Notes: generated by a model from the sequence alone, not told the origin. A stretch of 64,000 bases of DNA from an uncultured Methanosarcinales archaeon (GCA_964343705.1 CAYFJX010000001.1:6100-70099); one strand, 5' to 3'; counted from the first letter of the stretch, positions 2,993-39,881 are shown. Made by a program: numbers and translations.

Positions 2993-3913
2993 CTAAATCT
3001 TTACTTCCCCACCTACAAGAGTGTGATCCTTGAAGTTAACAAGACGTTGTGCTGCTTTCTTAGTATCAGCCGGTGCATAGCCTCCAATATACAGTGCAAT
3101 GTTTCGTGCTGACGTCGGGAATAATTTAATGATTGCTTCACCTGGACTAAATATTTGGCAAGTATTATTCATTGCCACTATTTTCTCTCGCCACAAGTCT
3201 GCTGCTGCAGGATTGTCACAAGGATTTCCAACAACAATATAATCTTTTTTTCCCAAAGTAATCTCACTTGCAAGCAATCCTTTTCCTGCTTTTTGCGTTT
3301 CACTTGCAAGACTAGTCATAATATCTTGAGATATAGTAACATCTTCAGCTGGAGCCTTGTCACCAACAACAATGGAAAGTCCTTTAGCAATATTGAGATA
3401 GTTTGCCAGGTCAAGTTTGTCTTTTTGTACAAATATACTGGAAGTACAGCAATCTTGGAAGCAACTGTTACAGGTTTCATCTGGTGTACACATACCATCC
3501 CCACAGCATGCTGCTGCTTTGCTTGGGACACATTGGTCTGCTTGACACACACCAGTCATGCATGCACCAAAGCTTTTTTCTTCACACTTGCCACAGTCAT
3601 TAGGGCAGTTACACTCATTTTCAGATGCACTACACACGCTGTCTCCACACACAGTTTGCACTTCTTCTTTATCACATACACCATTTGAGTCAGAGTCTGC
3701 ACAGCAAGCTCCATCAATCAACACAAGAGGTGCTGCACAAATAGGAGCAAGGTCTTCAACAGTTCCTTGTGCTTCTTGAACAGCATCTGGAGAAGTAGTT
3801 TCATCTGACGAGTCTGTTGTTGATGAAGAAGAGACTTCACCACCTTTAAGATCTATACTACAACCTGCCAAAAGCATAGCTATACAGAGACCCACCGCCA
3901 GGAATTGTTTCAT
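2993..3913 (-). CDS. Cys-rich secreted lipoprotein-like surface protein
   Basis: N-terminal signal with lipobox-like LLAGCS, a long Cys-rich central segment, and a C-terminal conserved domain. 4-nt overlap with the upstream small ORF. Confidence 0.5.
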   Translation of the reverse strand: MKQFLAVGLCIAMLLAGCSIDLKGGEVSSSSTTDSSDETTSPDAVQEAQGTVEDLAPICAAPLVLIDGACCADSDSNGVCDKEEVQTVCGDSVCSASENECNCPNDCGKCEEKSFGACMTGVCQADQCVPSKAAACCGDGMCTPDETCNSCFQDCCTSSIFVQKDKLDLANYLNIAKGLSIVVGDKAPAEDVTISQDIMTSLASETQKAGKGLLASEITLGKKDYIVVGNPCDNPAAADLWREKIVAMNNTCQIFSPGEAIIKLFPTSARNIALYIGGYAPADTKKAAQRLVNFKDHTLVGGEVKI

Positions 3914-6036: not shown

Positions 6037-7085
6037 TAGTCTTCACCAACCACAGGCTGATCTTCATTGCCTTGTAAACCACGAAGAATTTCACGGGAAA
6101 GACGTAGTTTACCATGGTATTCTTTTGCTAGTTTGAGACAGTTAACATTGTCAGGAAATGGCATGATAAGAGGAGTCACCCCATTTTCATACAAGCATTC
6201 AACAATGCCTCGTGATGCTTCATTCAGGACAGGATACGGAGTAGAAGAAGCCTGACCCCTATTTACAAAGAGTGATTTAGACCTACCTGCAAGAACATAC
6301 ACAAGCTGGTGATTTGGATACAATGAATTTAAGGGGTCAAACAAATTACTTGTTGGATTGTTACCATTTTTTTTCCGACCCCACATGTTACTGGCAACTT
6401 GATTACCTGCTTTTGATTCACCAACAATCAAATATTTTTCACCCTGCCTACCATCTGTATGAAACCAAGCAAGACCATCAATATCAGTAAGCTCCAAACC
6501 TTCTCTTCCTTGACGATACCTAAAACGATGAGAACCCTCACGTACTTTTTTTAGCAGCCTAAATGTTGTTCGACGATCAAACTGCAACAAGTAATCATTG
6601 TTGAAGTAAACAATATCTGTTTTGCCTGGCCGATATGATGCTTTTTGACGCAAAACTTCTGCCTCTGCATTACGAAAACCATTACGTCTTGCTTGTTTAA
6701 CCACCCCTTGCATAAGAGCGTCAAGCATGAGTGTCAATACCCTCTCACCAATCCTTCCTTGAAAGTGTTTAGTAAAATAATTATCTGCGCCCTTCCAACT
6801 TAGTATGTCTTTAATTTTAGCAAGAGGATAATGGACACTTCCAATCCGAGCAACAGTGTCAACAAGATCTGTTCCCCCAATAAGCTCAATTTCAGTTTCA
6901 TACACATCTGGCACAACCCACCTGTCTTTAAGGCATTTGTGTCCATCCTCAGCCGCAACAATCTGATCAAGCCTTGGACAATAACGAGCTGGCTCAAACT
7001 TAGAAAAAGGATTAAATGCTTCATCACCACTTGTTTGCATGACCAAAATAAATAAAACGAGTTTAAAAAATTTGTTGCACTCCAA
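6036..7085 (-). CDS. Hypothetical secreted protein
   Basis: N-terminal signal peptide (FKLVLFILVMQTSG). 349-aa ORF, 1-nt overlap with the MTase gene. No family recognised. Confidence 0.5.
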   Translation of the reverse strand: MECNKFFKLVLFILVMQTSGDEAFNPFSKFEPARYCPRLDQIVAAEDGHKCLKDRWVVPDVYETEIELIGGTDLVDTVARIGSVHYPLAKIKDILSWKGADNYFTKHFQGRIGERVLTLMLDALMQGVVKQARRNGFRNAEAEVLRQKASYRPGKTDIVYFNNDYLLQFDRRTTFRLLKKVREGSHRFRYRQGREGLELTDIDGLAWFHTDGRQGEKYLIVGESKAGNQVASNMWGRKKNGNNPTSNLFDPLNSLYPNHQLVYVLAGRSKSLFVNRGQASSTPYPVLNEASRGIVECLYENGVTPLIMPFPDNVNCLKLAKEYHGKLRLSREILRGLQGNEDQPVVGED

Positions 7086-8349: not shown

Positions 8350-8634
8350 ATGGTTGAAAACAAAATACGGGCATACATTGATGGTGCACTCGCGCGCCAC
8401 CACAAGGTTGAAGATATTATGGCTAATTTAATCAATGCTGGCCATGATTCACACACTGTTCGTTCGTTAACAAAGGAACGAGTACAACACAGGATTAGAC
8501 ACCTTGAGGGTAAGAAGAGTGCATTAACAAAAAAGTATTCTGGTGTTATGAGCTTGATGTTCTCATTCCTTATTCGTGGAGCAGTAGGAGTTGTTGCTGT
8601 ATGGGCCCTAACAAGTGTTGTTGTAACTGCTTAA
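8350..8634 (+). CDS. Small hypothetical protein with C-terminal TM helix
   Basis: 94-aa ORF ending in a hydrophobic helix (GAVGVVAVWALTSVVV). Confidence 0.35.
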   Translation: MVENKIRAYIDGALARHHKVEDIMANLINAGHDSHTVRSLTKERVQHRIRHLEGKKSALTKKYSGVMSLMFSFLIRGAVGVVAVWALTSVVVTA

Positions 8635-9323
8635 CGTCGCTTGAGTAATTTCTTAAAAAATCCCATAAGTGCAAATGATTCTCGCTTGGTGAGAAAGGAT
8701 TTACTTATAATCTTGTTCCATAACACATTCTGTGTTTCTTTTTTGTCTTCTGTTGTAAACTCAATGGTTTCAATAACTTCTTCTGCAAGTTTTTTGGCGT
8801 GGTCAATGTCAACCTTGGACGCATATTCAATATGTGATGTACTAGTCTCGCCCTGAAGTGCAAGAAAGAGCTCGTACAGAATAATACCACAAGCGTGACT
8901 GATGTTAAGAGTCTTATACTTGGGTGATGATGGAATTGAAACAATGACATCACAGAGTTCTATTTCATGATTATGTAACCCACTGTCTTCCCTTCCCAGG
9001 ACAATACAGATTTTTTGTCCTACAGTGATTTTCTCCCCTAGTTGTCGTGGTGTGAGTGGCTGACGAGGAAAATTAGTGTTTCCACCAAGTTGTGCTGTAG
9101 TACCAATAACATAGTCAAACTCTTGCAATGCTGACAAGTCTGCTTTTCTAGCATTTTTGAGAACGTCTTGGGCATGGCATGCCCTGTCCATTGCAGTCTT
9201 TGCAAGATGATCAACTGGTGAGTCTATTAACAGAAGATCAATAACTCCAAAGTTTTTCATAACACGAGCTATAGCTCCAATGTTTCCTTCGACACGCATA
9301 CCAATACAGGCAAGAGTTATCAT
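8631..9323 (-). CDS. SPOUT (SpoU/TrmH-class) RNA 2'-O-methyltransferase, TrmJ/aTrm56-like
   Basis: SPOUT motifs ICIVLGREDSGL and LNISHACGIILYEL. Rossmann-like N-terminus GNIGAIARVMKNFG. Confidence 0.8.
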   Translation of the reverse strand: MITLACIGMRVEGNIGAIARVMKNFGVIDLLLIDSPVDHLAKTAMDRACHAQDVLKNARKADLSALQEFDYVIGTTAQLGGNTNFPRQPLTPRQLGEKITVGQKICIVLGREDSGLHNHEIELCDVIVSIPSSPKYKTLNISHACGIILYELFLALQGETSTSHIEYASKVDIDHAKKLAEEVIETIEFTTEDKKETQNVLWNKIISKSFLTKRESFALMGFFKKLLKRR

Positions 9324-9399
9324 ATGCTACAGAAATAAGAAGTGGTATTTAAGGGTTTATTGTTGGTTGCAAAAAAGACTGAGATATTAGTTTCAGCCA

Positions 9400-9497
9400 G
9401 GGCTGTTTCTTAATTATCATAACATTGCACAGTTGTAACCGCGCTTTGCGTGGATTAAACAGCCAGTGGCTGCCAAATCTGTGCTATTGAAAATGTT
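9400..9497. ncRNA. Candidate structured RNA element, copy 1 of 2 (family with compensatory hairpins)
   Basis: Blocks CATTGCACAGTT-TAACC-[hairpin]-GGATTAAACAGC-[hairpin]-ATCTGTGC-TTGAAATGTT are shared with 12413..12504. The hairpin stems differ but stay paired. Strand undetermined. Confidence 0.3.
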
Positions 9498-9733
9498 ATA
9501 TAATGAAAAAAACAAATATATACCTATTTAAAGAAATCTTTTCCTTATCTCAGATTTTATTTTATTCCCGATGCTCTCTGCCTCCTCTTTTGTCAATTTA
9601 CTTTGATTAAGCAGCTTATCTATCCACAAAAATCTTTTTATTTTAATCTCATTTTCTAGTGTCCTAAAAGCAATAAATATAAACACCAGCCCTGCTAAAA
9701 AGATTATAATCCGATAATAGTTTAACGTCTCAG

Positions 9734-9925
9734 TTAAAAAGTATTTCCTGTACTTCCAAGATATATCGATGAAACGCCCCCATAAAAAATACCTCCTGCA
9801 AGAAAAGAACGAATTAGTCCATTTAAATTCATCTTGTTCCTACGAAATACAAAAACCACATAAACACTAATCAAGCCCATAATGATGGGTAAAGTTATTT
9901 CGTTAATATACCGAAATAAGAACAT
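9734..9925 (-). CDS. Small hypothetical membrane protein
   Basis: 63-aa ORF with two TM helices, immediately downstream of a glycine-zipper mini-ORF. Confidence 0.3.
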   Translation of the reverse strand: MFLFRYINEITLPIIMGLISVYVVFVFRRNKMNLNGLIRSFLAGGIFYGGVSSIYLGSTGNTF

Positions 9926-9927
9926 GC

Positions 9928-10062
9928 CTATCTTCTCCTAACTGAAGAACCCACAATAGCCCCAATAATCCCACCAATTACTGCACCAGGAACAGAACCC
10001 ACTGCACCACCAAGTATTGCTCCACCAACCAATCCAGCAAGAATTGATTCATCCTTTCTCAT
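9928..10062 (-). CDS. Glycine-zipper small membrane peptide (44 aa)
   Basis: Hand-translated from the sequence: MRKDESILAGLVGGAILGGAVGSVPGAVIGGIIGAIVGSSVRRR. GxxxG repeats, then a basic tail. Too short for the ORF track. Confidence 0.25.
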   Translation of the reverse strand: MRKDESILAGLVGGAILGGAVGSVPGAVIGGIIGAIVGSSVRRR

Positions 10063-10106
10063 AATAAACAAAATATCGTTATTCTTTATAAATTTTCTTT
10101 AAATCC

Positions 10107-11303
10107 TTACCCTGTGCAGCTCTTGAATATGATCATTACCAGCACTAAGCAAAAGACAATTCCAACATAGCCCCATATCTTATGTGCTAATGCCTCGTTC
10201 TTTTTGCCAAATATCTTCAATAAGGCAATTTGGAACATCCGTCCACCATCACAGATAGCAACAGGTAAGAGGTTAAAGAACCCAATACCCAGATTAATAA
10301 GATATAACCAAAACAACAATCCCATGCTCCACATGATTGCTGCAGGAACAAATTCACCATATTGTTCTTTGAAACTTTCTTTAATTTTAGTTTTGTCAGC
10401 TACAAACACACCAAGGTACGGAGCTGAGCTGTTAGTTGGGTGAATTCCCAGTTCAATATCATACGCAGTCCTGTTTGTCACAATGTTAATTGTCTCACCT
10501 GGCTTTTTTTCTGCCATGACTGCTGAGAACTCCTTAACTCGCATAACTGACTGGCCATCCATTTCAGTGATTATTTCACCTTTTGTAAGACCTGATTCTT
10601 GGACTGGATACACTCCATCTTCTACAATGCCATGGACTGATACACCTGTGTGGTCAAGAACTGCAGCGTCAATAGGTGTTGCAATAACCATGAACAAACC
10701 AATAATTAAAAACCCAAGGACAATGTTAGACAATGGCCCTGCTGCAATAACACTCAATTGTTGTTTTGCTGGCCGCTTACGCATTTCTTTTTCATCTGGT
10801 TCAACAAACGCAATAGGAATTACTGGCGCGATAATACCAATAACACCAACACCGCTTGATGTCACCTTGAGTTTGTGTACTCGTGCAAGCACCCCATGAC
10901 TAAACTCATGGATGACAACGACCACAAAGAGTGATATAATAAAGTAAAAGAAGGGAACGTAAATTGTTCCGGGAAGATTTTGTGAAAATGGTTGGAGTAT
11001 ACCTACACCTGGCACTGCTTTTTCAGACACAAACATAAGATAGAGATTTTCTACGAGTTTGTACGAGATAAAAACCATACCTGCGTAACCAAGCCAGATA
11101 AAACTGTAACCTGCATACTTGAGTAATCGCGGAAACTTCTTTGCCAGTCGATCCATTGCTTTAAGTCCGATCTTAGTTCGGTACATAAAGATGTAAAGAA
11201 AGGGGAAAAGTACTTTTTGGAGAATTAGTTTTTTCCTTTCAATATAGACCACAATAGCCAGCAAGACTATAAACCCTAATGCAAAGAATGCTTGTATATC
11301 CAT
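10107..11303 (-). CDS. Site-2 protease (M50 family zinc metalloprotease) with PDZ domain
   Basis: HEFSHG zinc motif in a TM helix, a PDZ-like segment, and C-terminal NLLPVAICDGGRM (LDG motif). Multiple TM helices. Confidence 0.8.
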   Translation of the reverse strand: MDIQAFFALGFIVLLAIVVYIERKKLILQKVLFPFLYIFMYRTKIGLKAMDRLAKKFPRLLKYAGYSFIWLGYAGMVFISYKLVENLYLMFVSEKAVPGVGILQPFSQNLPGTIYVPFFYFIISLFVVVVIHEFSHGVLARVHKLKVTSSGVGVIGIIAPVIPIAFVEPDEKEMRKRPAKQQLSVIAAGPLSNIVLGFLIIGLFMVIATPIDAAVLDHTGVSVHGIVEDGVYPVQESGLTKGEIITEMDGQSVMRVKEFSAVMAEKKPGETINIVTNRTAYDIELGIHPTNSSAPYLGVFVADKTKIKESFKEQYGEFVPAAIMWSMGLLFWLYLINLGIGFFNLLPVAICDGGRMFQIALLKIFGKKNEALAHKIWGYVGIVFCLVLVMIIFKSCTG

Positions 11304-11393
11304 CCTGTACCTCTTTAGTCAAATTATAGGAATACCTCTTTTTATAGTTTGTTATTTTACAGAAGAGAATGTTTGGAAGAAAGTTTAAAAGAT

Positions 11394-11555
11394 CTACTTC
11401 TTCCTAACTGGCCGCAGACTAGTAGAGCCACACTTACGGCATTTCATCTTACCTGCCATAACCTTACGGCTAGAAGTTCTACGTTTTGTCTTACAATTTC
11501 TGCAGACATAAATGTTACGCTGCGTCCGTGCAGCTGCTTCTGGAAATTTTGCCAT
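11394..11555 (-). CDS. rpl40e: 50S ribosomal protein L40e
   Basis: Hand-translated minus-strand ORF: MAKFPEAAARTQRNIYVCRNCKTKRRTSSRKVMAGKMKCRKCGSTSLRPVRKK. L40e signature MAKFPEA plus a C4 zinc ribbon. The plus-strand 69-aa ORF over it is spurious. Confidence 0.8.
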   Translation of the reverse strand: MAKFPEAAARTQRNIYVCRNCKTKRRTSSRKVMAGKMKCRKCGSTSLRPVRKK

Positions 11556-11568
11556 TGATAATCACAAT

Positions 11569-11970
11569 TTAATTGCTTTGTTTAACTTGTTTCATAACTT
11601 TTGCGTCAAGGACAACCCAATATAGGACATTACATCCGTCAACACAGTCATCTTTGAGGTCGTCTGGAATGTCAAGATCAAATGTTTCATAGGTCTCAGA
11701 GTCCATAACATTTGCCTTGCCTCCTTGTATTGACAAGACCTGAGCTGTTTTTTTTCCAATAATCGGTGATTCAATACTATCATGACCTGGCATGACAATA
11801 ACACGTTTTTTGCCATCAAGGATGCCAACACCAGTCAATCGCACTTTTGCGTGACCATGTTTTCCTGGCCGAGATGTTTGCGTGTCTGTAACACGACAAG
11901 CTGCGCCGTCAAGCACCACATAATTGCCTTTTTGTAGGCTCCCTACACTTACTGGTTTTGTATTACTCAT
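11569..11970 (-). CDS. eif5a: Translation initiation factor 5A (aIF-5A)
   Basis: Hypusination loop TSRPGKHGHAKV and an OB-fold C-terminus. Confidence 0.9.
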   Translation of the reverse strand: MSNTKPVSVGSLQKGNYVVLDGAACRVTDTQTSRPGKHGHAKVRLTGVGILDGKKRVIVMPGHDSIESPIIGKKTAQVLSIQGGKANVMDSETYETFDLDIPDDLKDDCVDGCNVLYWVVLDAKVMKQVKQSN

Positions 11971-12102
11971 TGTCTAAACACCTTCCAAATTGAGTAGTTG
12001 TCTACCTCACCGTGTAAACTGATCATATTTAAATATTTCTATAAACGCACCTGAAGTAGGCAAAAAAAGCCGTTTAAGAAGTCCCAATGCTGTTTGCATA
12101 GT

Positions 12103-12300
12103 CTAAGGCATATTGATGTAGGTGTTTGGAGCATACCTCATAGTGTCTGTCCGTGATGTTTTACCTACTGTTTTAGAGGTTATAATAACCTTGCCACCTT
12201 TTTTCTGTGTACCTACAACGCGGTACAATGACTGCCTAATAAAAACTTTATCACCAGCTTGAATATTTTTTGCTTGTACTCTTTTTACCATGTCTATCAC
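12103..12300 (-). CDS. Small basic hypothetical protein (possible KOW/TRAM-like RNA-binding fold)
   Basis: 65-aa ORF with a TATA-like box about 30 nt upstream. No secure family assignment. Confidence 0.35.
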   Translation of the reverse strand: MIDMVKRVQAKNIQAGDKVFIRQSLYRVVGTQKKGGKVIITSKTVGKTSRTDTMRYAPNTYINMP

Positions 12301-12412
12301 ACCTCAGTGGTTTTAAGAATATCAAGGGCTTGTACTATTTAAAGTTTGTTATGAAAAAATAAGGATGGATAGGGGTACACTGAGAATAACTAGGTTAAGT
12401 TTGGGCTGTTCC

Positions 12413-12504
12413 ATAATCAAATCAGACATTGCACAGTTTTAACCGAGCCGGGTCCCGGCTCGGATTAAACAGCTTTGCTGTATGATCTGTGCAGTTGAAA
12501 TGTT
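12413..12504. ncRNA. Candidate structured RNA element, copy 2 of 2
   Basis: Same conserved blocks as 9400..9497. Perfect hairpin CCGAGCCGGG-T-CCCGGCTCGG replaces copy 1's CGC-TTT-GCG. Second hairpin ACAGC-TTT-GCTGT replaces CAGCC-AGT-GGCTG. Confidence 0.3.
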
Positions 12505-12560
12505 CTTTGATTTTGAAGACTTTGCAGAGATTAGCTCACCTACAAAAAGTAAAAAGACAT

Positions 12561-13358: not shown

Positions 13359-15977
13359 TCAATAATTTGTGTCAAACCTAAGAATCGCTGCAACTCTTCC
13401 AATGTCACGAAGCTGCACACCTTCTCGTGTTTCAGTGGAAATAATCTTAACTTTAGTACCTAATTCGCGTGCCTTTTCTTCAAACTGTTCAAGAAGGTTA
13501 TCTGCCAACTCTTCAGAAAGCAATAAAGTATCAACAACACCAGTTTCTAGATGTTTAAGACAGTCAGCTTGACCATAACTTACCATTCCTGGCTTGGTTG
13601 AAAGTAATGTAAAAAATTTAGTCATTACCTGTTTTTCCTCTGCAATCTCTTCTTTAGCAAGGACATCTTGGCTCTTGTCAACAAGTTCTTGCAATCCAAA
13701 TTCTTCAGTGTAACTAAGATCTTTCACTGCAATTATTTTCTTCTTAACTTGATCAGTAATGAAGTTTCCCTCAACAAATGAGTACTTTGTAGGGCCAGGA
13801 CCACCGACAAGAATGCCTTTTAGGTCTTTCATCATCATAAACTGTTCTTTCATATAGTTCCCGACTTTTTTGTAGTGATCCTTTGCAGCACCTTCACGCA
13901 ATCGGGCAAAACGTTGAGCTGAGTTGTGTACAATAACACCATTTGCTATGAAGTTTTGGTTCCCAACAGAAATATCAACCATTTCAACTTCTTTTTCTTC
14001 AATTTCAATTTTACTTATTTTGACAGGGAGGAAAGGGTGATTATGTATTTTCTCAAGCTTTTCATGTAAGTCTTTGTCTGTTATATTACATAGAATGGAA
14101 TTGTTGAATGCCTCCTTGCTCATCATACGCTCATTTCTAAAAAAACTGTTAACTTTAGGAAACAATTCCAGATTATACCCTGAGTTTTCTATAATTTTCC
14201 GGATTTCTGTACCAGGAATGAGTATTTGCCTCACATTACTTTTTACTGATTTTCCATCAATAATTTGATTTAATCTTGCATTCTTAATTTCACTTGTTAA
14301 CCCGATATTTTTTCTAAAAAGTTCTAAAGATTCCTTTTCAGTGATGTCAATGGTAAAGCGTGGATTATCACTGTAAGGGTTTCTTCTGTTATCATATTCA
14401 TGCAAAGATGAGATTATGCTAAATCTAAGCAATGCCATTTGTACCTGTTGGGCAAGAATCTTGTTACTAATCCCCAATGCAACTTGTTTTCGGGTAGAAA
14501 CATAGCCTTCAGCGTCAAAGATTCCTTTAAGAAATGAAGCTAGTATTTCGTCAGGAGAGTTTAGTATTTTCTTTGGAATCTCAGAGTCATGAGTCTTTTT
14601 TATTTCTGGAAACTCGCTTATAATCATCCTGACTAAAGGTCTGCTTGTGAACCTCAATTGATGGTAATTTTTAGATTCTCTGAACCTATAAGATGAGATC
14701 ATATGTAAATAATTATCAAATATTTCCTTATATTTCAAAGCAACCTGTTTATTTTGTTCAAAAAAAGTAATTCGATCCTTCTCAATACAACCATCACCAA
14801 GCAAATACCCTAAGAACTGTGCTAGTTTATGGTCAACAACTACAGGGAGTTTCATACTGGCATGCAAATCAGGTGTAGTATACTTTCTCAAAAAATCATA
14901 AAAATCTATTTCTAAAGCAGCACACACTTTCTGAAGAGGAATCCGTCTAGCACTCATTTTACCTATTTCATACGAAGAAATAGTTGTTTGAGTAATACCC
15001 AGTTGCTTAGCTAATTGCTTTTGGAAAAGGCCTTTCTCCATCCTTTTCTGCTTAAGTAAAGCCTGCCCCTGTTCATTAATAGAGAAGGCGTTGTAGTATT
15101 GAATAGAATTAATTGTTTGAATAGAGCTCTTGACTGTAATCTTTTCTGGCATTATAAGATACTCTCCTTCTTTCAACTGCTCAGCTGGTTTTTCTTCAAT
15201 GCCATTCTCACCACGAACAAAAAAGACATGATCTTTGGACGCTTGAATTTCAAATCGAGGTGATTTTGTGGTGATCTTGTAAATATGAGACTTCTTTACA
15301 TCCCATCGATCAGTGACAGGTGAATCCGCAAGTGAAAAATTTTCCATAACCATTGTCTTAAGGACACAAGGGTTATGAGAAAATTTGAGCTGAAGGATTC
15401 CACCATCACAAGATTGGATTAGAGTATCCTTGACAAGACACTGACCACCAGCACGAAACTTTCCTGGAACTTCAGAATGAGTTTTTAGCAATGGCACAAT
15501 TGTTTTTCCTTTAAGCAATGCAAGATGTGCATCTCGCCTGTCCATAACAACAAGGCCAAACACTTCTGAAGCCTCACACATTTGAGCAAGGGGTTCAAGA
15601 AGAAACTCCTTGTCACATCGGTAAATACGCGTGTTTAATTCAACAGGAGGTTCAATACTCCACACACGCAAATCAGACTTACCTTCCTTTGAAGCAATGT
15701 TACCTGAGAAAACAGCAAGACCATTAGGTGGTGTTTTCTTGAACAAACGCAAGTGTTGAATCATTCGCTCAAGAGCATCAGTGACATTTTTTCGTGTACT
15801 TGCAGATTTAATGTTGGATGCAGTTCCTTGCTCTTGAGAAAGATGTTGTATAATTTTTATAAGGTCATATCCCTTAGGAATGTATACACTAACAAACTCT
15901 GTATGCCGACCTCGATGCGGCTTTAATTCCTTCATAAACTTTTTGAGTTTAAACTTAGTTGCTTGTTCCATTACCAT
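13359..15977 (-). CDS. prf1: Peptide chain release factor aRF1 interrupted by a 506-aa intein
   Basis: aRF1 N-terminus (RGRHTEFVSVYIPKGY, GTASNIKS, NIKS-like). GGQ motif is followed immediately by Cys, and the frame resumes as SAQRFARLREG after an HN dipeptide. Confidence 0.9.
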   Translation of the reverse strand: MVMEQATKFKLKKFMKELKPHRGRHTEFVSVYIPKGYDLIKIIQHLSQEQGTASNIKSASTRKNVTDALERMIQHLRLFKKTPPNGLAVFSGNIASKEGKSDLRVWSIEPPVELNTRIYRCDKEFLLEPLAQMCEASEVFGLVVMDRRDAHLALLKGKTIVPLLKTHSEVPGKFRAGGQCLVKDTLIQSCDGGILQLKFSHNPCVLKTMVMENFSLADSPVTDRWDVKKSHIYKITTKSPRFEIQASKDHVFFVRGENGIEEKPAEQLKEGEYLIMPEKITVKSSIQTINSIQYYNAFSINEQGQALLKQKRMEKGLFQKQLAKQLGITQTTISSYEIGKMSARRIPLQKVCAALEIDFYDFLRKYTTPDLHASMKLPVVVDHKLAQFLGYLLGDGCIEKDRITFFEQNKQVALKYKEIFDNYLHMISSYRFRESKNYHQLRFTSRPLVRMIISEFPEIKKTHDSEIPKKILNSPDEILASFLKGIFDAEGYVSTRKQVALGISNKILAQQVQMALLRFSIISSLHEYDNRRNPYSDNPRFTIDITEKESLELFRKNIGLTSEIKNARLNQIIDGKSVKSNVRQILIPGTEIRKIIENSGYNLELFPKVNSFFRNERMMSKEAFNNSILCNITDKDLHEKLEKIHNHPFLPVKISKIEIEEKEVEMVDISVGNQNFIANGVIVHNSAQRFARLREGAAKDHYKKVGNYMKEQFMMMKDLKGILVGGPGPTKYSFVEGNFITDQVKKKIIAVKDLSYTEEFGLQELVDKSQDVLAKEEIAEEKQVMTKFFTLLSTKPGMVSYGQADCLKHLETGVVDTLLLSEELADNLLEQFEEKARELGTKVKIISTETREGVQLRDIGRVAAILRFDTNY
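13923..15440 (-). mobile_element. Intein with LAGLIDADG homing endonuclease and an HTH (XRE-like) insert, at the aRF1 GGQ site
   Basis: Starts with Cys right after GGQ and ends VIVHN before the +1 Ser. Two LAGLIDADG blocks (LAQFLGYLLGDGCI, ILASFLKGIFDAEGYV). HTH-like LAKQLGITQTTISSYEIGK. Confidence 0.8.
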
Positions 15978-17839: not shown

Positions 17840-19270
17840 ATGAAAGATATTCTTAACCAAATCAAAAAAACTGAGTGGTATAAGCAAGCTGGAAACAGTA
17901 AAGTCTACTATATTTTTCCTCCGTGCCGAGGAGCTGCTGACCATTTGGGAACTGACTTAACAATATGGTCGCTCAAGGACAGAAAGCTAATGGAGTGGGT
18001 TTCACCACGAAAGAACTTTATTGACACTGCAACAAATGCCCTTGACAAGCAAAAAAAAGATCATGCCTTTATTGACAAGCACATGGCTGTGTGTGAGAAA
18101 AAAAGTCTTGCACTGGAAAAATTCTATGAGAAATTTCTAAAGAAAGATCCATCAACATTTGATCTCAAGAAAGTCATTGCAACATTGCAAGAACTTGAAA
18201 AGCTGAGTTATGATTACTGGCTTGATGCTTACCTCTGTGATGCATTTGATCCTGAAGGTGATAAGATGCTCAAGGAGGAAATTGAAAAGCACAAGATAAC
18301 CCTGGATGAAAATGAGATAGCTGTTTTTATGCGTACTAGCTGGCTGAATTATATGCAAGAAGAACGATTAGACATGCTTAACCTTGCCAAGAAGGTCAAA
18401 GGGAAAAAGTGTTCTATAAAAAATGCGCATGTTGAACTTGAAAAACATGCAATGAAGTTTTTTTATGTTGACAACAGCTGGGAGTCAACAACAGTGTTAA
18501 TGGTTAATGATTTTGCAAAGCGACTTGATGCAACACTTCATGGAGACATAGATAAACAGATTGCAGAGTTAGAAACAAACTGGGAAGAAAAACACACGGA
18601 GTTGCAAGAAAAACATAGCATTCCTGACGAGCTTATGAATGTTTTTTATTTCTTTAGCCAGTTATTCAAACTGAGAGATCAACGAAAAAAGCACACTCTT
18701 TTGAGCAATCATGTGTATGATATGCTGTTCCAGTGTATTGGTGAGCTCTTTGACATACGCTTCAAGCACCTTGCCGTTATAGCTGCTGAAGAAATCACTG
18801 AGCAAACAACAACAGAAGACTTAAAGAAAAAAATAAGTGAGCGAGAAGACATTATTCTCGAAGTGTATTCTAAAAAGAAGACAGATTTTTATGAAGGAGA
18901 AGAAGGAATGGAAATTGACACTGCAATTCAAAAAACCTTTGCTCACAAAGGTGACACTATAAAAGGAACACCAGCGTGTAAAGGAGTGGTGCAAGGTGTT
19001 GTACGTGTCATCAGAGGAGAAGTACACTTTAGCAAATTCAATAAAGGGGAAATATTAGTTGCTCCAATGACACGGCCAGAATACTTGCCACTTATGAAAA
19101 AAGCAAAAGCAATAGTAACAGATGAGGGTGGTGTGACCTGTCATGCTGCGATTGTATCCAGAGAACTTGGTGTACCCTGTATAATTGGTACAGGTGTAGC
19201 AACACAGAAACTCCATGATGGTGAGCTTGTTGAGGTGGACGCTGATAAAGGCGTGGTGAAACGCCTATGA
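17840..19270 (+). CDS. PEP-utilizing-enzyme swivel (phosphohistidine) domain protein, paralog 1 of 7, with uncharacterised N-terminal domain
   Basis: C-terminus GEILVAPMTRPEYLPLMKKAKAIVTDEGGVTCHAAIVSRELGVPCIIGT is the PEP-utilizers mobile-domain signature with the catalytic His. N-terminal motifs shared with the paralogs. Confidence 0.75.
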   Translation: MKDILNQIKKTEWYKQAGNSKVYYIFPPCRGAADHLGTDLTIWSLKDRKLMEWVSPRKNFIDTATNALDKQKKDHAFIDKHMAVCEKKSLALEKFYEKFLKKDPSTFDLKKVIATLQELEKLSYDYWLDAYLCDAFDPEGDKMLKEEIEKHKITLDENEIAVFMRTSWLNYMQEERLDMLNLAKKVKGKKCSIKNAHVELEKHAMKFFYVDNSWESTTVLMVNDFAKRLDATLHGDIDKQIAELETNWEEKHTELQEKHSIPDELMNVFYFFSQLFKLRDQRKKHTLLSNHVYDMLFQCIGELFDIRFKHLAVIAAEEITEQTTTEDLKKKISEREDIILEVYSKKKTDFYEGEEGMEIDTAIQKTFAHKGDTIKGTPACKGVVQGVVRVIRGEVHFSKFNKGEILVAPMTRPEYLPLMKKAKAIVTDEGGVTCHAAIVSRELGVPCIIGTGVATQKLHDGELVEVDADKGVVKRL

Positions 19271-22387: not shown

Positions 22388-23695
22388 TTATTCAGAATTG
22401 TACATCGCTTCAAAGGTTTCTTGCAAAAATTTAGCAACAACAGTATGATCTGGGATACGACCAACTGCTAAACGTATTGTTCCAGGTGGGTAATCAGAAG
22501 GAATACCAAGTGTGCTTTCACCAATCATAAGATAGCGTTCATCACCTAAACTGACTTGGTATGAGATTGGTGAGCGTACATCACTTTCTACACGAGCAAT
22601 AAACTCTTTTTCCCTTGCAAGTTTTTCTTTTGCTGTTTTTCCGGCAAGTTCAAAGGTCACCACACCGCCTGCCAAACCATCGCGTGAAAGATCACCAAGA
22701 TCTGGGTAGTGCACCGTATCAACATGAGGTGAATCTTGTAGGAATCTTGTTACAAGCCCATAGGCGTTATTAGTATGATCTCTCATACGTTGTGGAAGAT
22801 CTGCAAGGCGGTGATATAATGTTTCAGCAACTGTTTGATCTATCACTGATCCAGTTACTGTTTGCCATGCTCGCAGGTGTCTAATGAAATCTTTTGGTCC
22901 AATAACTGCACCACCAAGAACATCGCCATGACCACTTATGTACTTGGTCATAGAATGTATAACAATGTCAGCTCCCATACGGAATGGTTGTTGTAAGTAA
23001 GGTGTAAGAAATGTATTATCTACAATCACTGGAATACCATGTTCCTGTGCCATACGTGCAACTTTGCGTGTGTCTGTTACTTCAATAAGTGGGTTAGTAA
23101 CTCCTTCATAAAACAGAGCAATGGTTTGCCTGCCCCTTTCTTGTAATGCTTTGTATACTTCTGCAAGGTTAGTTGTATCTACAGCAAGTGCTTTATTGAT
23201 ACAAGTTTCCTGTGGAATAACTTCATCAAAAACAGCTTCTGTATTAACAAAAACTGTTTTCCCACGCATAAAAAAAAGATCAATATGTTCCCTGTTTGAA
23301 TGCTCTATATTTCGAGCTAGTGCCTTTGCAACGCCGTAAATGGCAGCCATGCCAGAGGGGAATACGGTTGCATCAATAAAATCAAAGGGATCTCCTTCAT
23401 CAGCAAAGTAGCCTGCTTCTGCTTCCACCAAGCGGTCACATAATACTCGTTCTTGTGGTGTGCCTGCGCGTGCGTAGAAATAGCCATCCCGAGAACCTTC
23501 TAGAACTTGGCCAAGATACCCCTCCCCATCCATATTAAAACTTGTTCTTGAAGGCAGTCCAAGATCAGGACCTCGAGCAAGACTTACTTTCAAAGGACCG
23601 ATATCATCAGAGCTTTGTTTAGTGGCAAGTAATTCTTTTGCTCTCTGCCAATCTGCTCCAAAAAAATCATGTACCAACATTCTACGGGCAACCAT
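22388..23695 (-). CDS. PLP-dependent Cys/Met-metabolism family enzyme (cystathionine gamma-synthase / O-acetylhomoserine sulfhydrylase-like)
   Basis: PLP-lysine context SMTKYISGHGDVLGG with DNTFLTP upstream. 435 aa. 2-nt gap to MTase paralog C. Confidence 0.8.
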   Translation of the reverse strand: MVARRMLVHDFFGADWQRAKELLATKQSSDDIGPLKVSLARGPDLGLPSRTSFNMDGEGYLGQVLEGSRDGYFYARAGTPQERVLCDRLVEAEAGYFADEGDPFDFIDATVFPSGMAAIYGVAKALARNIEHSNREHIDLFFMRGKTVFVNTEAVFDEVIPQETCINKALAVDTTNLAEVYKALQERGRQTIALFYEGVTNPLIEVTDTRKVARMAQEHGIPVIVDNTFLTPYLQQPFRMGADIVIHSMTKYISGHGDVLGGAVIGPKDFIRHLRAWQTVTGSVIDQTVAETLYHRLADLPQRMRDHTNNAYGLVTRFLQDSPHVDTVHYPDLGDLSRDGLAGGVVTFELAGKTAKEKLAREKEFIARVESDVRSPISYQVSLGDERYLMIGESTLGIPSDYPPGTIRLAVGRIPDHTVVAKFLQETFEAMYNSE

Positions 23696-23783
23696 ACAAA
23701 AAAGGAAACTTCCACTCCTTTATATACCTTCCCCCCTAAAACAGCCTAAAGCTATAAATAGAACCCCCTCACCCGATATACTA

Positions 23784-25217
23784 ATGAGACTTATAAAGCT
23801 ACAAACAAAGGGCAATTGCTATCCTGATGTTAATATTCAAGCAATTGCGGTGATGTTGTTGTGTGATTATCACAAGGCATTTGGTGTATCCTTTGGTTTG
23901 GATGTTGTTACTACTTTTGAAAATGAGACAATGGTCTGGTATGGTTATGATGAAGAGTATGAACGGCTAAAAAAAGAAACAAGCGCTCTTCTTATGGAAA
24001 AACCAGAGTTGGCAAAAAAATGTCAAAAGAATTTTTTTGAAGGAGCAAAAGTATTCCTGGAATTTATTAAGAAAATCAACCAAACAAACTTTAGCAAGCT
24101 CAGCAACAAAGAACTCCAAGATTTATATGAAGACTATTTTAACAGAAATCGTGCATTAGGTATTTGGGGAGAGCCATTGCCACATTACACGCGAGAAGAC
24201 GTACCAAAATTTCTGCTCAAGTGCCTAAATGAAATAAGCAAAACCCCAAGCGATGATCTAAACCTACTTACTGCACCAAACTATGTTTCTTTCACAAAAC
24301 AAGAGGAGATGGACTTACTTAAGATTGCCATACAGATCAAAGCAGATCCAGAAAATACAGAACTCAAAGAACAACTCATTAAAGAACACACCAAGAAATG
24401 GTTTTGGATACCTTATGATTATGGTGTAACAACATGGGATGAAAAGCATTTCATGGATGAGCTTGAAGAGGTACAAGATCCAGAAAAAAAACTCAAAGAA
24501 ATAGAAATCACATATAAGGAACTACCAAAAAAACAACAAGCTCGACTTAAAGAACTAGCCATTGATCCACATACAGAAGAGATTTTCCAAGCACTACAAA
24601 TTTGCACTATTCTCATGGATTACAAAAAAGAAGTATTTACTAAAGCACATTATTCAACACGTCGCTTGCATAAAGAAATAGCACAGCGACTTGGACTCAC
24701 ATATGAACAAACCAAAGTACTGCTCATAAAAGAAGTAAGCCAAGCACTCTTAGAAAACAAACCCCCTACACCTGAAGAACTTGATGGACGACTCAAATTT
24801 AGTGTATTAAAACTCAGCAAGGATGGAGAGTACAGCTTTGTAAGTGGTGAAAAAGCAAAGGAATGGGTCAAAAGAATACAAGCAGATGAAGAGAAGTCAG
24901 ATGAACTCACTGGCTTTCCTGCATGCAAAGGACAATACACTGGTACTGTTCGGTGTATTCTTGATGCAAGAAATATTCATGAACTAAAAAAAGGAGAAGT
25001 ATTAGTCACATACATGACAAGCCCTGACTACACTATTGGCATGAAAAAAGCAGGAGCTATTGTAACAGATGAAGGTGGCATTAGCAGTCACGCGGCGATT
25101 GTGTCCCGTGAGTTAGGAGTGCCATGTGTAATTGGAACAAAGCACGCAACGCGTGTACTAAAAACAGGTGATAGAGTTGCAGTTGATGCAGAAAAAGGAG
25201 TCATTACAAAACTATAA
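23784..25217 (+). CDS. PEP-utilizing swivel-domain protein, paralog 2
   Basis: C-terminus GEVLVTYMTSPDYTIGMKKAGAIVTDEGGISSHAAIVSRELGVPCVIGT, plus FWIPYDY. The ORF-track start at 23622 overlaps the PLP gene, so the start was moved to Met55 (MRLIKLQ). Confidence 0.7.
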   Translation: MRLIKLQTKGNCYPDVNIQAIAVMLLCDYHKAFGVSFGLDVVTTFENETMVWYGYDEEYERLKKETSALLMEKPELAKKCQKNFFEGAKVFLEFIKKINQTNFSKLSNKELQDLYEDYFNRNRALGIWGEPLPHYTREDVPKFLLKCLNEISKTPSDDLNLLTAPNYVSFTKQEEMDLLKIAIQIKADPENTELKEQLIKEHTKKWFWIPYDYGVTTWDEKHFMDELEEVQDPEKKLKEIEITYKELPKKQQARLKELAIDPHTEEIFQALQICTILMDYKKEVFTKAHYSTRRLHKEIAQRLGLTYEQTKVLLIKEVSQALLENKPPTPEELDGRLKFSVLKLSKDGEYSFVSGEKAKEWVKRIQADEEKSDELTGFPACKGQYTGTVRCILDARNIHELKKGEVLVTYMTSPDYTIGMKKAGAIVTDEGGISSHAAIVSRELGVPCVIGTKHATRVLKTGDRVAVDAEKGVITKL

Positions 25218-27098: not shown

Positions 27099-28604
27099 AT
27101 GACACTTACAATCATCCATGGACACACACAGAAGAATCTCAAGAAGTGGACAGGCAAAAAATGGTACCACCAACGTTTTGATGGGTCCCCCTACCTATTG
27201 CACTTTATTGCTGAGGCTGAGATTGCAAAAGAACCACGCAAATTAGATGGCCACAACTATGTACATTACTGCTTTTTTGATAATGGCAAGGCAGACTGGT
27301 ACATTGAAATGGTGGACATCAAAAGAATTTACACCAGTGTAATCACCGCAGGAAAGAGCAATCCAAAAATTAGCACGCAGTTTCTTGCTGATTGGAAAAA
27401 TGATGAACATGAATTCTATGAAAAATGCATAGAGATAGGTAACACCAATCTCTCAGAGCTTCGTGATACTGAGCTTCTTGCATTGCATGATGATTTCCTA
27501 CATATAACCCTACGACGTAACAGCAGCAGCTCAGTTATTGATGGTTTTGCACTTGGAACAGACACACTTATTGCAGAAAAAATAAAGGTAGTGTATGAAA
27601 CTTCCAAGCTCAAAGAGACAATGAGATCAACAGAAGTATTTTCCATACTCACAGCCCCAGTTCATCTTTCATTTATCAATCATGCAGAAGTTGCCCTCCT
27701 GAAACTAGCAGTAGCAGTCAAGAAAGACCCCAACAGAAAAGAAGACCTACTTGCAGAACATCAAAAGAACTTTTTTTGGATTCGAAATAATTATGTTGAT
27801 GCAAATGTACTAGATACTGTATACTTTAACGAAGAATTAGACAAGATTTTTTCAATTAACATTGATGTTGAAGAAGAAATAAAGAAAATAGAGGAAACAC
27901 CTCAAGTAAACAAAAATAGAAAAGCAGAGCTTATGAAAAAACTTACATTAGATGATGAACTCAAACTGTTAATTAAAGTGTCAGAAGATTTTACCTATTG
28001 GCAAGATGAAAGAAAAAAGGCAACATTCTGGACTGCACACTATGCAACACTAATCCTTGAAGAAATTGGCAAGAGGGTAGGAATAAGTGCAGATCTTCTC
28101 AAATACGCAAGCCCACGGGAAATCGCTGCAGTGTTCAAAAAAGAAATCACCCAGGAAGAGCTCACAGAACGACAAAAGAATAGCGTGTTTTATTGGGATA
28201 CTGAGGGACATGAATGTCTCAGTGGAGAAGAGGCAGAAAAAGTAAAACAAACAATTTTAGGCACCACTGATTTATCAGATGTTGATGACTTCAGAGGCCT
28301 CACTGCAAGCATGGGTAAGGCAACAGGCACAGTAAAAGTCCTTAAATCTGCAAAAGAAGTTGACAAAGTGGAAGAAGGTGACATCCTTGTGGCAGTAATG
28401 ACAAGACCTGATTATGTTCCCGCCATGAAAAAAGCAGCCGCCATAGTAACAGATGAAGGTGGTGTAACGTGTCACGCAGCAATAGTCAGTAGGGAACTTG
28501 GCATCCCATGTATAATCGGCACCAAAATTGCCACAAAGGTTTTAAAAGATGGAATGCAAGCAGAGGTCAACGCTAATCATGGCTGGGTGAAAATAGTAAA
28601 ATAA
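27099..28604 (+). CDS. PEP-utilizing swivel-domain protein, paralog 3
   Basis: KKWYHQRF, NFFWIRNNY, WQDERKK, and C-terminus GDILVAVMTRPDYVPAMKKAAAIVTDEGGVTCHAAIVSRELGIPCIIGT. Confidence 0.75.
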   Translation: MTLTIIHGHTQKNLKKWTGKKWYHQRFDGSPYLLHFIAEAEIAKEPRKLDGHNYVHYCFFDNGKADWYIEMVDIKRIYTSVITAGKSNPKISTQFLADWKNDEHEFYEKCIEIGNTNLSELRDTELLALHDDFLHITLRRNSSSSVIDGFALGTDTLIAEKIKVVYETSKLKETMRSTEVFSILTAPVHLSFINHAEVALLKLAVAVKKDPNRKEDLLAEHQKNFFWIRNNYVDANVLDTVYFNEELDKIFSINIDVEEEIKKIEETPQVNKNRKAELMKKLTLDDELKLLIKVSEDFTYWQDERKKATFWTAHYATLILEEIGKRVGISADLLKYASPREIAAVFKKEITQEELTERQKNSVFYWDTEGHECLSGEEAEKVKQTILGTTDLSDVDDFRGLTASMGKATGTVKVLKSAKEVDKVEEGDILVAVMTRPDYVPAMKKAAAIVTDEGGVTCHAAIVSRELGIPCIIGTKIATKVLKDGMQAEVNANHGWVKIVK

Positions 28605-39859: not shown

Positions 39860-39881
39860 GGTGATGACTAACCCGAGGAAC

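What the first reader, a model, noticed from the sequence alone, without database searches (positions are those of the whole stretch)
9400..12504. Two intergenic copies of a structured RNA-like element with compensatory hairpin substitutions
Elements at 9400..9497 and 12413..12504 share conserved single-stranded blocks: GGGCTGTT, CATTGCACAGTT-TAACC, GGATTAAACAGC, ATCTGTGC and TTGAAATGTT. Their two internal hairpins have completely different sequences that keep base pairing. Hairpin 1 is CGC-TTT-GCG in one copy and CCGAGCCGGG-T-CCCGGCTCGG in the other. Hairpin 2 is CAGCC-AGT-GGCTG in one and ACAGC-TTT-GCTGT in the other. A long-range GCACAG...CTGTGC pairing encloses both hairpins, and GGCTGTT...AACAGCC pairs across them, giving a pseudoknot-like arrangement. 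Covariation of this kind is the hallmark of a functional RNA rather than a MITE or terminator. Both copies lie ~100-180 nt beyond the TATA boxes of minus-strand genes (the trmJ-like gene and a small basic protein), downstream of other minus-strand genes. I cannot match it to tRNA, SRP, RNase P, C/D or H/ACA consensus.
Basis: seen in the sequence. Interest (0 to 1): 0.65.

Follow-up and report, generated by a model that had tools for sequence, protein, structure and literature searches.

The report
Paired structured intergenic repeat in Woesearchaeota
Two ~100-base look-alike sequences that fold into the same branched hairpin shape sit just upstream of two gene promoters in an uncultured DPANN archaeon; they are real, kept in one sister genome and match no known RNA family, so they are a plausible but unproven new small RNA or a domesticated palindromic repeat.

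Summary
The two elements exist (9400-9497 and 12403-12504, + strand) and are clearly homologous. A covariance model scores them at 103 and 111 bits and finds nothing else in the 64 kb window or in about 16 kb of flanks.

The organism is a Woesearchaeota (DPANN) archaeon. Only one sister genome carries the element, in three partial or complete copies. Seven more distant relatives have short orthologous spacers without it, so it is a lineage-specific insertion at two spacers.

Hairpin P2 shows real compensatory change across four copies. Hairpin P3 does not: its CAGC/GCTG core is invariant in three copies. The enclosing stem GCACAG/CUGUGC never covaries. The GGCUGUU...AACAGCY pairing is mutually exclusive with P3.

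There is no Rfam, tRNA, C/D, H/ACA or K-turn match, and no integrase, transposase or Orc1 gene nearby.

In all four known left flanks the GGCUGUU end faces a divergent TATA box about 45-70 bp away. The transcribed strand is unresolved: P2 folds better on the + strand, while P3, the T-runs and two good TATA boxes favour the - strand.

Best reading (about 0.4): a lineage-restricted small structured RNA that arose from a palindromic insertion. Rivals are a REP/MITE-like DNA repeat (0.3) and a minus-strand transcript-end module (0.2). Interest is moderate to low.

The parts
9400..9497 (.). Copy 1 (E1) core. Tail GGCTGTT 9401-9407. A/U-rich linker 9408-9421. P1a ACATT 9422-9426 pairs with AATGT 9492-9496. 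P1b GCACAG 9427-9432 pairs with CTGTGC 9479-9484. P2 is CCGCGC-TTT-GCGTGG at 9439-9453. P3 is CAGCC-AGT-GGCTG at 9460-9472.
   Evidence: Sequence. Minimum-free-energy fold. Covariance model R1 scores it at 103 bits.
12403..12504 (.). Copy 2 (E2) core. Tail GGCTGTT 12404-12410. P1a 12426-12430 pairs with 12499-12503. P1b 12431-12436 pairs with 12487-12492. P2 is CCGAGCCGG-GTC-CCGGCTCGG at 12443-12463. P3 is ACAGC-TTT-GCTGT at 12469-12481.
   Evidence: Sequence. Minimum-free-energy fold. R1 scores it at 111 bits.
9378..9399 (.). 5' extension of copy 1 (ACTGAGATATTAGTTTCAGCCA). It is homologous to 12379-12402 and to the sister-genome copies (GTTTCAGCC). CAGC...GCTG can form a small hairpin with the tail.
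   Evidence: Alignments.
12379..12402 (.). 5' extension of copy 2 (ACTGAGAATAACTAGGTTAAGTTT).
   Evidence: Alignments.
12505..12560 (.). 3' extension 'z' of copy 2 (TTTGATTTTGAAGAC...TAGCTCACCTACAAAAAGT...). It is 75% identical to the stretch after copy A in the sister genome. GATTTTGA is also present after copy B. It has no significant fold. It overlaps the T-rich terminator region behind the SprT-like gene on the - strand.
9371..9376 (-). T6 run on the - strand, 29 nt after the AACAGCCC end of copy 1 and just before the SpoU promoter.
   Evidence: Sequence. Chance of a T5 or A5 run in a 50-nt intergenic window is 17-32%.
12354..12359 (-). T6 run on the - strand, 47 nt after the AACAGCCC end of copy 2 and just before the promoter of the 65-aa gene.
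   Evidence: Sequence. Background rate.
9523..9533 (-). Consensus archaeal TATA box (CTTTAAATAGG on the - strand). It lies about 25 nt upstream of the point where copy 1 would begin if it is transcribed on the - strand. It overlaps the stop codon of a small ORF.
   Evidence: Sequence. Matches the TTTAAATA boxes of neighbouring genes. The promoter role is inferred.
9345..9355 (-). TATA box (CCTTAAATACC) of the leaderless SpoU/TrmJ-like gene (8631-9323). It lies 45-55 bp from the GGCTGTT end of copy 1.
   Evidence: Sequence. Pfam SpoU_methylase.
12335..12344 (-). TATA box (CTTTAAATAG) of the 65-aa gene (12103-12300). It lies about 60 bp from the GGCTGTT end of copy 2.
   Evidence: Sequence. The promoter region is 86% identical in the sister genome.

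Best explanation
The two elements are paralogous copies of a structured element of about 100-135 nt that is restricted to one Woesearchaeota lineage.

Anatomy (shown):
- A closing stem (GCACAG/CUGUGC).
- A GC-rich hairpin, P2, whose length and sequence vary but whose pairing is kept.
- A short hairpin, P3 (CAGC/GCUG).
- A conserved single-stranded tail, GGCUGUU, joined by an A/U-rich linker. The tail can pair with AACAGCY and thereby open P3.

History (shown):
- The element entered two intergenic spacers (SprT|65-aa gene and M50|SpoU) in the common ancestor of this organism and one sister genome.
- In every known case its GGCUGUU end lies about 45-70 bp from the TATA box of the neighbouring gene.
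- It has since been conserved well above the level of synonymous sites.

Mechanism (inferred): it is expressed as a small non-coding RNA with its own transcription unit. It acts through the invariant single-stranded blocks, with tail/P3 competition giving two alternative conformations. The transcribed strand and the targets are not established.
For: - Homology and exclusivity: R1 scores the two copies at 103 and 111 bits and finds no other hit in the 64 kb window or in about 16 kb of flanks.
- The same three-way-junction fold is the minimum-free-energy structure of copy 1, copy 2 and sister copy A. The tail pairing costs only 1.7-6.6 kcal/mol more.
- P2 keeps pairing through double-sided changes at three to four positions in four copies. 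P3 shows one compensatory pair (A-U to G-C) in copy B.
- Loop and spacer lengths differ between copies: CAGC and GCUG are 3 or 5 nt apart, and P2 has 5 to 9 pairs. This fits a folded strand, not a fixed dimeric DNA site.
- Conservation between the two genomes is 70-76% for the element, against 49% at four-fold degenerate sites.
- No ORF is conserved across the copies, because their indels are not multiples of three.
- No Rfam family explains it.
- Plausible transcription signals exist:
  - On the - strand, TTTAAATA (copy 1) or TTTTAAAT (copy B) lies upstream, and a T5-T6 run lies 14-47 nt downstream in all four flanks.
  - On the + strand, a conserved GATTTTGA lies at a fixed distance after three of four copies.
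Against: - There are no expression data.
- Only four or five copies from two genomes are known. The formal covariation test is not significant (48/500). The closing stem and the tail pairing never covary.
- The strand is ambiguous. P2 is more stable on the + strand (copy 1: -8.7 vs -4.8 kcal/mol; copy B: -7.9 vs -3.5). P3 is more stable on the - strand.
- Other intergenic spacers of this locus are even better conserved between the two genomes, at 77-86%. The element's conservation is therefore not exceptional for non-coding DNA here.
- The element is absent from seven related genomes.
- Sister copy A carries an 85-nt insertion and a G.A mismatch in the closing stem.
Confidence: 0.4

Rival explanations
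1. A REP/MITE-like palindromic DNA repeat. A small non-autonomous element inserted into intergenic spacers. Its hairpins matter, or once mattered, at the DNA level: single-stranded hairpins during transposition or replication, or recombination substrates. Any transcription is incidental.
For: - The element is a lineage-specific insertion. The orthologous spacers are 33-134 nt in relatives and carry no element.
- It occurs at two or more loci per genome.
- Both strands fold about equally well.
- Related genome L012 carries a different GC-rich palindromic repeat in the same SprT|62-aa spacer, plus a second copy 2 kb away.
- In the sister genome, two copies in opposite orientation share 90 identical bases and both contigs break there. 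This fits ongoing recombination or gene conversion between copies.
Against: - Only two copies were found in about 80 kb.
- There are no terminal inverted repeats or target-site duplications at the borders.
- No transposase, RAYT or integrase was found among the 27 proteins scanned by Pfam, which cover window positions 1-34111, or among the precomputed Pfam calls for the flanking loci. ORFs at 34-63 kb of the window were not scanned.
- Copies sit at orthologous positions in two genomes whose synonymous sites are near saturation, yet they keep 70-76% identity and their pairing. This indicates host-level constraint rather than a decaying selfish relic.
Confidence: 0.3
2. A cis-acting module on the minus strand, which is the coding strand of all neighbouring genes. 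The element forms the structured end of the upstream transcription unit, or a terminator/insulator. The structure followed by a T5-T6 run stops or stabilises read-through transcripts just ahead of the next promoter.
For: - In the window both copies lie between co-directional minus-strand genes: SprT -> E2 -> 65-aa gene, and M50/small ORFs -> E1 -> SpoU.
- In L010, copy B lies 85 nt behind M50.
- In all four known flanks a T5-T6 run follows the element on this strand, before the next TATA box. The chance rate is 17-32% per flank.
- P3 is more stable on this strand.
Against: - T5-T7 runs already lie between the upstream stop codon and the element: T7 at 9506-9512, and two T5 runs at 12544-12558. 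Most transcripts should therefore end before reaching it.
- Archaeal termination is not known to need hairpins (general knowledge).
- In the sister genome at least one copy has no upstream gene on that strand.
- P2 has A.C mismatches on this strand in copies 1 and B.
- The terminator scan found nothing at the elements.
Confidence: 0.2
3. A riboswitch or attenuator-like leader that controls the downstream gene through the mutually exclusive pairings (segments CAGCC / GGCUGUU / AACAGCC / GGCUG, followed by a T-run on the minus strand).
For: - Copies 1, A and C have a 1-2-3-4 arrangement of complementary segments followed by a T-run on the minus strand.
- The energies of the two folds are close.
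Against: - A canonical BRE/TATA promoter with a leaderless or short-leader start lies between the element and each downstream gene. The element is therefore not in the 5' UTR.
- The downstream genes are unrelated (SpoU, a 65-aa protein, a 238-aa protein).
- Segment 4 is missing in copy 2.
- There is no Rfam riboswitch match.
Confidence: 0.03
4. Replication-origin recognition boxes (ORB-like) or another double-stranded protein-binding array.
For: GCAGTTGAAATG and CACAGTTKTAACC loosely resemble the archaeal ORB core. That resemblance is recalled from memory and was not tested.
Against: - No Orc1/Cdc6 gene lies within +/-10 kb.
- The copies are direct repeats 3 kb apart with housekeeping genes between them.
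- There is no AT-rich unwinding region and no skew inflection.
- Hairpin covariation and variable spacing are not explained by this reading.
Confidence: 0.02

Closest known systems
Bacterial REP/BIME elements (repetitive extragenic palindromes)
   Same: Intergenic and lineage-specific. They are imperfect palindromes whose stems keep pairing between copies. They often lie behind genes and can be transcribed as part of neighbouring mRNAs. They are substrates for recombination.
   Different: REPs are about 35 nt single hairpins present in hundreds of copies, and they are linked to RAYT transposases. This element is a ~100 nt three-way junction with a conserved tail, has only 2 copies in about 80 kb, has no RAYT in the scanned part of the window or the flanking loci, and is archaeal.
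MITEs, and the palindrome-associated elements (PATEs) of archaea
   Same: Small, non-coding, structured insertions found in several intergenic spacers of one lineage.
   Different: This element has no terminal inverted repeats, no target-site duplication and no parent IS. Its copies are old, positionally conserved and constrained.
Paralogous small regulatory RNA pairs (e.g. bacterial OmrA/B, PrrF1/2, Qrr)
   Same: Two nearby paralogous genes of about 100 nt. Their single-stranded blocks are identical while the hairpins differ.
   Different: No expression, promoter, chaperone or target is known here. The organism is a DPANN archaeon, where no such family has been described to my knowledge.
Integron attC sites
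   Same: Recombination sites that are recognised as folded single strands. Their structure is conserved, but the sequence and length of the apical part vary widely.
   Different: The R''/R' consensus (RYYYAAC...GTTRRRY) and its spacing are not met: GTTTAAT...GTTAAAA lie only 32-38 nt apart. No integrase was found among the proteins scanned, and the flanked genes are housekeeping genes with their own promoters.
Transcription attenuators and riboswitch expression platforms
   Same: Mutually exclusive helices built from repeated complementary segments next to a T-run.
   Different: The element lies upstream of the gene's own promoter, not in its leader. Hairpin-dependent attenuation is not established in archaea.

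Membership tests
Any Rfam 15 family | Score at or above the family's gathering threshold | tested here: not met
   There are 0 hits at gathering thresholds in the whole window. In E-value mode only sub-threshold noise appears, and it is not shared by the two copies. The best is BcKCsr2 at 24 bits against a threshold of 40, on copy 2 only.
tRNA (including intron-containing) | Cloverleaf with a T-arm next to the 3' acceptor strand | tested here: not met
   ARAGORN finds none. The Rfam tRNA model finds none in the window, although it does find an intron-containing tRNA in L087. By inspection, the hairpin before AACAGCC has a 3-nt loop and a 5-nt spacer, which is not a T-arm.
Archaeal C/D box sRNA | C box RUGAUGA and D box CUGA near the ends, forming a K-turn | tested here: not met
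   By inspection of both strands, only UGAUWAU is present on the - strand. There is no conserved D box partner. No snoRNA model reaches its threshold.
Archaeal H/ACA sRNA | Hairpin with a two-sided pseudouridylation pocket, a K-turn or K-loop, and an ACA box directly 3' of the lower stem | tested here: not met
   The fold is a three-way junction, not a pocket hairpin. No ACA lies within 3 nt of the closing stem on either strand.
K-turn (L7Ae site) | A 3-nt bulge followed by tandem sheared G.A pairs | tested here: not met
   The internal loop of P1 has UGA on the 3' strand, but UU or CU rather than GA on the opposing strand.
MITE | Terminal inverted repeats, target-site duplication and many dispersed copies | tested here: not met
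   No TIR or TSD is present at the homology borders. There are only 2 copies in about 80 kb. The copy number in the whole genome could not be tested.
REP/BIME | Short (about 20-40 nt) palindromic units in high copy number, with an associated RAYT | tested here: inconclusive
   The element is palindromic, intergenic and lineage-specific. However, it is a ~100 nt composite with low copy number in the sampled 80 kb. No RAYT/Y1 transposase was found among the 27 proteins scanned or in the precomputed Pfam calls for flanking loci. ORFs at 34-63 kb of the window were not scanned, and the rest of the genome is not available.
Integron attC | R''(RYYYAAC)-L''...L'-R'(GTTRRRY) with unpaired spacers, total length of at least ~55 bp, and an IntI integrase and cassette array nearby | tested here: not met
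   The closest strings, GTTTAAT and GTTAAAA, each match 6 of 7 positions and lie only 32-38 nt apart. No tyrosine recombinase was found among the proteins scanned. The flanked genes are aIF5A and the M50 peptidase, each with its own promoter.
Archaeal replication origin (ORB) | Inverted ORBs flanking an AT-rich unwinding element, usually next to orc1/cdc6 | tested here: not met
   The copies are direct repeats 3 kb apart. No Orc1/Cdc6 domain is found in the neighbouring genes. There is no compositional inflection.
Riboswitch / cis-regulatory leader | Located within the 5' UTR of the regulated gene on the same strand | tested here: not met
   A TATA box lies between the element and the start codon, 26-52 nt before the ATG. 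On the + strand no gene lies downstream in the window.
Structured non-coding RNA (generic) | Statistically supported covariation and a defined transcript | tested here: inconclusive
   P2 covaries by manual tally. The formal test on 4 sequences is not significant. Transcription cannot be tested with these tools.

The most novel reading that the evidence does not exclude
A previously undescribed family of small RNAs in DPANN archaea. It would have been born from a palindromic insertion and then domesticated. It folds into a three-way junction, and its conserved 5' tail competes with hairpin P3, giving a two-state switch. It is always placed next to a promoter, where it could couple its own expression or structure to the divergent or downstream gene.
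Probability: 0.2. Interest if true: 0.55.

Novelty: new member of a known kind. Interest (0 to 1): 0.35.

Why it matters
Almost nothing is known about regulatory or structural RNAs in DPANN archaea, which have tiny genomes and are uncultured. A confirmed lineage-specific small RNA next to translation-related genes (aIF5A, aRF1, a tRNA/rRNA methyltransferase) would be a rare entry point. If it is instead a REP-like repeat, it shows that these reduced genomes still acquire and keep small palindromic intergenic elements that can drive local rearrangements. Either way, its narrow distribution (two genomes) limits its general importance.

Tried and rejected
1. Known RNA families. Four Rfam scans, ARAGORN and manual checks for tRNA, C/D, H/ACA, K-turn, hammerhead core and a BHB intron found no match.

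2. More copies, by DNA pattern:
- ACAGTTNTAACC..GGATTAAACAG against 185,579 species genomes gave 3 hits, all coding or chance.
- The 5'-half pattern against JGI metagenomes and IMG/VR gave 0 hits.
- The 3'-half pattern that fits all four copies gave 65 + 3 hits. None scored with the model; the best was 22 bits with E = 0.35, and L051 was inspected and is not homologous.

3. More copies, by synteny. Loci were fetched for aIF5A, SpoU and SprT homologues. Only the sister genome (L010, L090) has the element. L011, L012, L087, L089, L091, L092 and L093 do not.

4. Coding potential.
- A 26-32 codon ORF runs through z (MFFDFEDFAEISSPTKSKK...) and is open in both genomes.
- The excess of third-position changes (6 of 12) is not significant by my own hand count.
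- Copy B lacks the start codon.
- Across the element the indels break all frames.
- Rejected.

5. Strand assignment from G-U pairs was inconclusive.

6. Origin of replication: rejected.

7. attC or another recombination site: rejected on consensus and context.

8. I first read sister copy A as a recombinant of copies 1 and 2, with an inverted gene block. This is now uncertain. The 90-nt exact repeat shared with contig L090 means the join in L010 may be an assembly path or one of two inversion isomers.

9. The 22-nt match between A's insertion and L087 (E = 0.03) is treated as possibly chance.


Full report
**1. The observation**

Both elements are present on the + strand. Copy 1 spans 9400-9497.

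They align with 73% identical positions. The 17-base block CATTGCACAGTTNTAACC and the 12-base block GGATTAAACAGC each occur in both copies, against 0.34 and 0.50 matches expected by chance. The extra near-matches at 25541 and 58851 lie inside coding sequence.

A covariance model (R1) scores the two copies at 103 and 111 bits. With filters off it finds nothing above 14 bits elsewhere in the window.

It covers about 22 nt on the 5' side (ACTGAGA...). For copy 2 it also covers about 55 nt on the 3' side, a stretch I call z.

**2. The structure**

The minimum-free-energy fold of each copy is a three-way junction. Its parts are:
- a closing stem P1 (ACAUU+GCACAG paired with CUGUGC..AAUGU);
- a GC-rich hairpin P2;
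- a short hairpin P3.

- **P3.** It has the same core (CAGC/GCUG) in both copies. Only the register and the loop differ.
- **P2.** It shares its base, CCG.GC/GC.YGG. It has one double-sided change and one G-U, and copy 2 is three pairs longer.
- **Tail pairing.** GGCUGUU...AACAGCY uses the 5' arm of P3. It is therefore an alternative to P3, not an addition. It costs 1.7-6.6 kcal/mol more than the three-way junction.

Folding z-scores are modest and similar on both strands.

**3. Organism and context**

The neighbouring genes are all on the - strand:
- aRF1 with an intein;
- a SprT-like protein;
- [copy 2];
- a 65-aa protein;
- aIF5A;
- an M50 peptidase;
- small ORFs;
- [copy 1];
- a SpoU/TrmJ-like methyltransferase.

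aIF5A homologues place the organism in the Woesearchaeota, a DPANN lineage. The same sequence occurs in several ENA assemblies of project PRJEB17505 and on a 255 kb NCBI contig.

No transposase, integrase or Orc1/Cdc6 gene was found among the 27 proteins scanned by Pfam (window positions 1-34111) or in the precomputed Pfam calls for flanking loci. ORFs at 34-63 kb of the window were not scanned.

**4. Related sequences**

Pattern scans found no homologue in the three public collections searched:
- 185,579 species genomes;
- JGI metagenome contigs;
- IMG/VR viral contigs.

Protein-anchored synteny was more useful. The nearest relative has 89% aIF5A, 82% SpoU and 87% SprT identity. The next relatives drop to about 57%. 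The nearest relative comes from JGI sample 3300076214 and carries the element three times:
- **Copy A.** It lies in L010 at 3319-3499, between SpoU and the 65-aa gene, and includes z.
- **Copy B.** It lies in L010 at 6052-6112, 85 nt behind M50. It is cut by the contig end inside P2.
- **Copy C.** It lies in L090 at 2554-2643, next to a 238-aa gene that follows SprT. It is cut by the contig end.

C and the 5' half of A are identical over 90 nt, right up to the end of L090. The sister genome therefore holds two copies in opposite orientation with identical 5' halves. The join seen in L010 may be an assembly path or one of two inversion isomers. I therefore do not rely on my earlier reading of A as a recombinant.

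Seven more distant Woesearchaeota lack the element (R1). Their orthologous spacers are mostly too short to hold it: SprT|62-aa is 54-86 nt and M50|SpoU is 33-134 nt. The element is therefore an insertion that reached two spacers in the common ancestor of the two genomes.

L012 has a different GC-rich palindromic repeat in the same SprT|62-aa spacer, with a second copy 2 kb away.

**5. Constraint**

Four-fold degenerate sites of five shared genes are 49% identical between the two genomes, against 30% expected by chance. The element copies are 70-76% identical and z is 75% identical. They are not decaying freely.

Other spacers of this locus are 77-86% identical, however. The element is therefore not unusually conserved for non-coding DNA here.

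Pair by pair, P2 changes as follows:
- pairs 1 and 2 switch C-G to U-A in copy B;
- pair 4 appears as C-G, A-U and G-C;
- pair 5 switches G-C to U-G.

P3 shows one compensatory A-U to G-C change and one mismatch, both in copy B. P1b is invariant, apart from a G.A mismatch in copy A.

The formal count on four sequences is not significant: 48 of 500 shuffles reach the observed score. Half-site spacing varies in both hairpins, which fits a folded single strand better than a double-stranded protein site.

**6. Position and strand**

In all four distinct left flanks (SpoU twice, the 65-aa gene, the 238-aa gene) the GGCUGUU end faces a divergently oriented TATA box about 45-70 bp away.

Features read on the - strand:
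- The element sits upstream of, and co-directional with, that neighbouring gene.
- A T5-T6 run lies in between in all four flanks. The chance rate is 17-32% per flank.
- Consensus TATA boxes lie upstream of copies 1 and B.

Features read on the + strand:
- A conserved GATTTTGA follows three of four copies at a fixed distance.
- P2 is clearly more stable on this strand.

P3 is more stable on the - strand. The strand is unresolved.

**7. Interpretation**

The best-supported reading is a lineage-restricted structured element that began as a palindromic insertion and is now kept under selection. It is most likely expressed as a small RNA whose invariant single-stranded blocks and tail/P3 competition carry its function (confidence 0.4).

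The rivals are:
- a REP/MITE-like DNA repeat (0.3);
- a minus-strand transcript-end or insulator module (0.2);
- a riboswitch or attenuator (0.03);
- an origin or other double-stranded protein-binding site (0.02).

The last two, and an attC-like recombination site, were tested against their defining features and fail.

**8. Verdict**

This is a real and moderately interesting orphan element. Sister-genome copies partly rescue it for one hairpin (P2). Function and strand need expression data and more copies.

Noticed in passing
window 17840-19270, 23622-25217, 27099-28604, 28629-30098, 30112-31614, 36632-37948, 39861-41318: Seven paralogous ORFs of about 440-530 aa. Five of them were scanned by Pfam and carry a C-terminal PEP-utilizers mobile domain; the ORFs at 36632 and 39861 were assigned only from DNA repeat family D1. 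They are interleaved with several SAM-dependent methyltransferases. This is an unusual gene array for a small DPANN genome.
   Followed up: partly
window 13359-15977 (-): The aRF1 gene carries an intein with HTH_3 and LAGLIDADG_3 domains, giving 872 aa. In relatives L012, L087, L089, L091 and L092, aRF1 is 364-367 aa without an intein.
   Followed up: partly
L012 9430-9520 and 7164-7251: A related Woesearchaeota MAG (GCA_053533855.1) has its own GC-rich palindromic repeat (core GCGAAAATCCGGCGCCGGATTTTCGC). One copy lies in the same SprT|62-aa spacer that holds copy 2 in the window. The other lies upstream of aRF1. There is no Rfam match.
   Followed up: partly
L087 3170-3308 and 3503-3540: A tRNA gene with a long intron was found by the Rfam tRNA model but missed by ARAGORN. 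A 38-nt duplicate of its 3' end lies about 200 nt downstream. This arrangement resembles an att site, i.e. a possible scar of an integrated element.
   Followed up: no
L010 3309-3398 and L090 2554-2643: A 90-nt exact repeat is shared by two contigs of one metagenome, and both contigs break at the element. The sister genome probably has inverted copies. These either flip the 65-aa/aIF5A/M50 block or confuse the assembler.
   Followed up: partly
window 9528-10071 (-): Three small ORFs lie between the M50 peptidase gene and copy 1. Two are hydrophobic or glycine-zipper-like (e.g. MRKDESILAGLVGGAILGGAVGSVPGAVIGGIIGAIVGSSVRRR). They are absent from the sister genome, where the element lies 85 nt behind M50.
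   Followed up: no
window 12103-12300 (-) and 11394-11555 (-): The 65-aa basic protein next to aIF5A looks, by eye, like a stand-alone copy of the aIF5A N-terminal barrel. A conserved 53-aa Cys-rich ORF lies in the aIF5A|M50 spacer, which is 85% identical in the sister genome. Neither has a Pfam hit.
   Followed up: no
L090 1764-2480 (-): A 238-aa gene has no homologue in the window or in the other loci. In the sister genome it is inserted between SprT and the element, and its promoter faces the element's GGCUGUU end.
   Followed up: no
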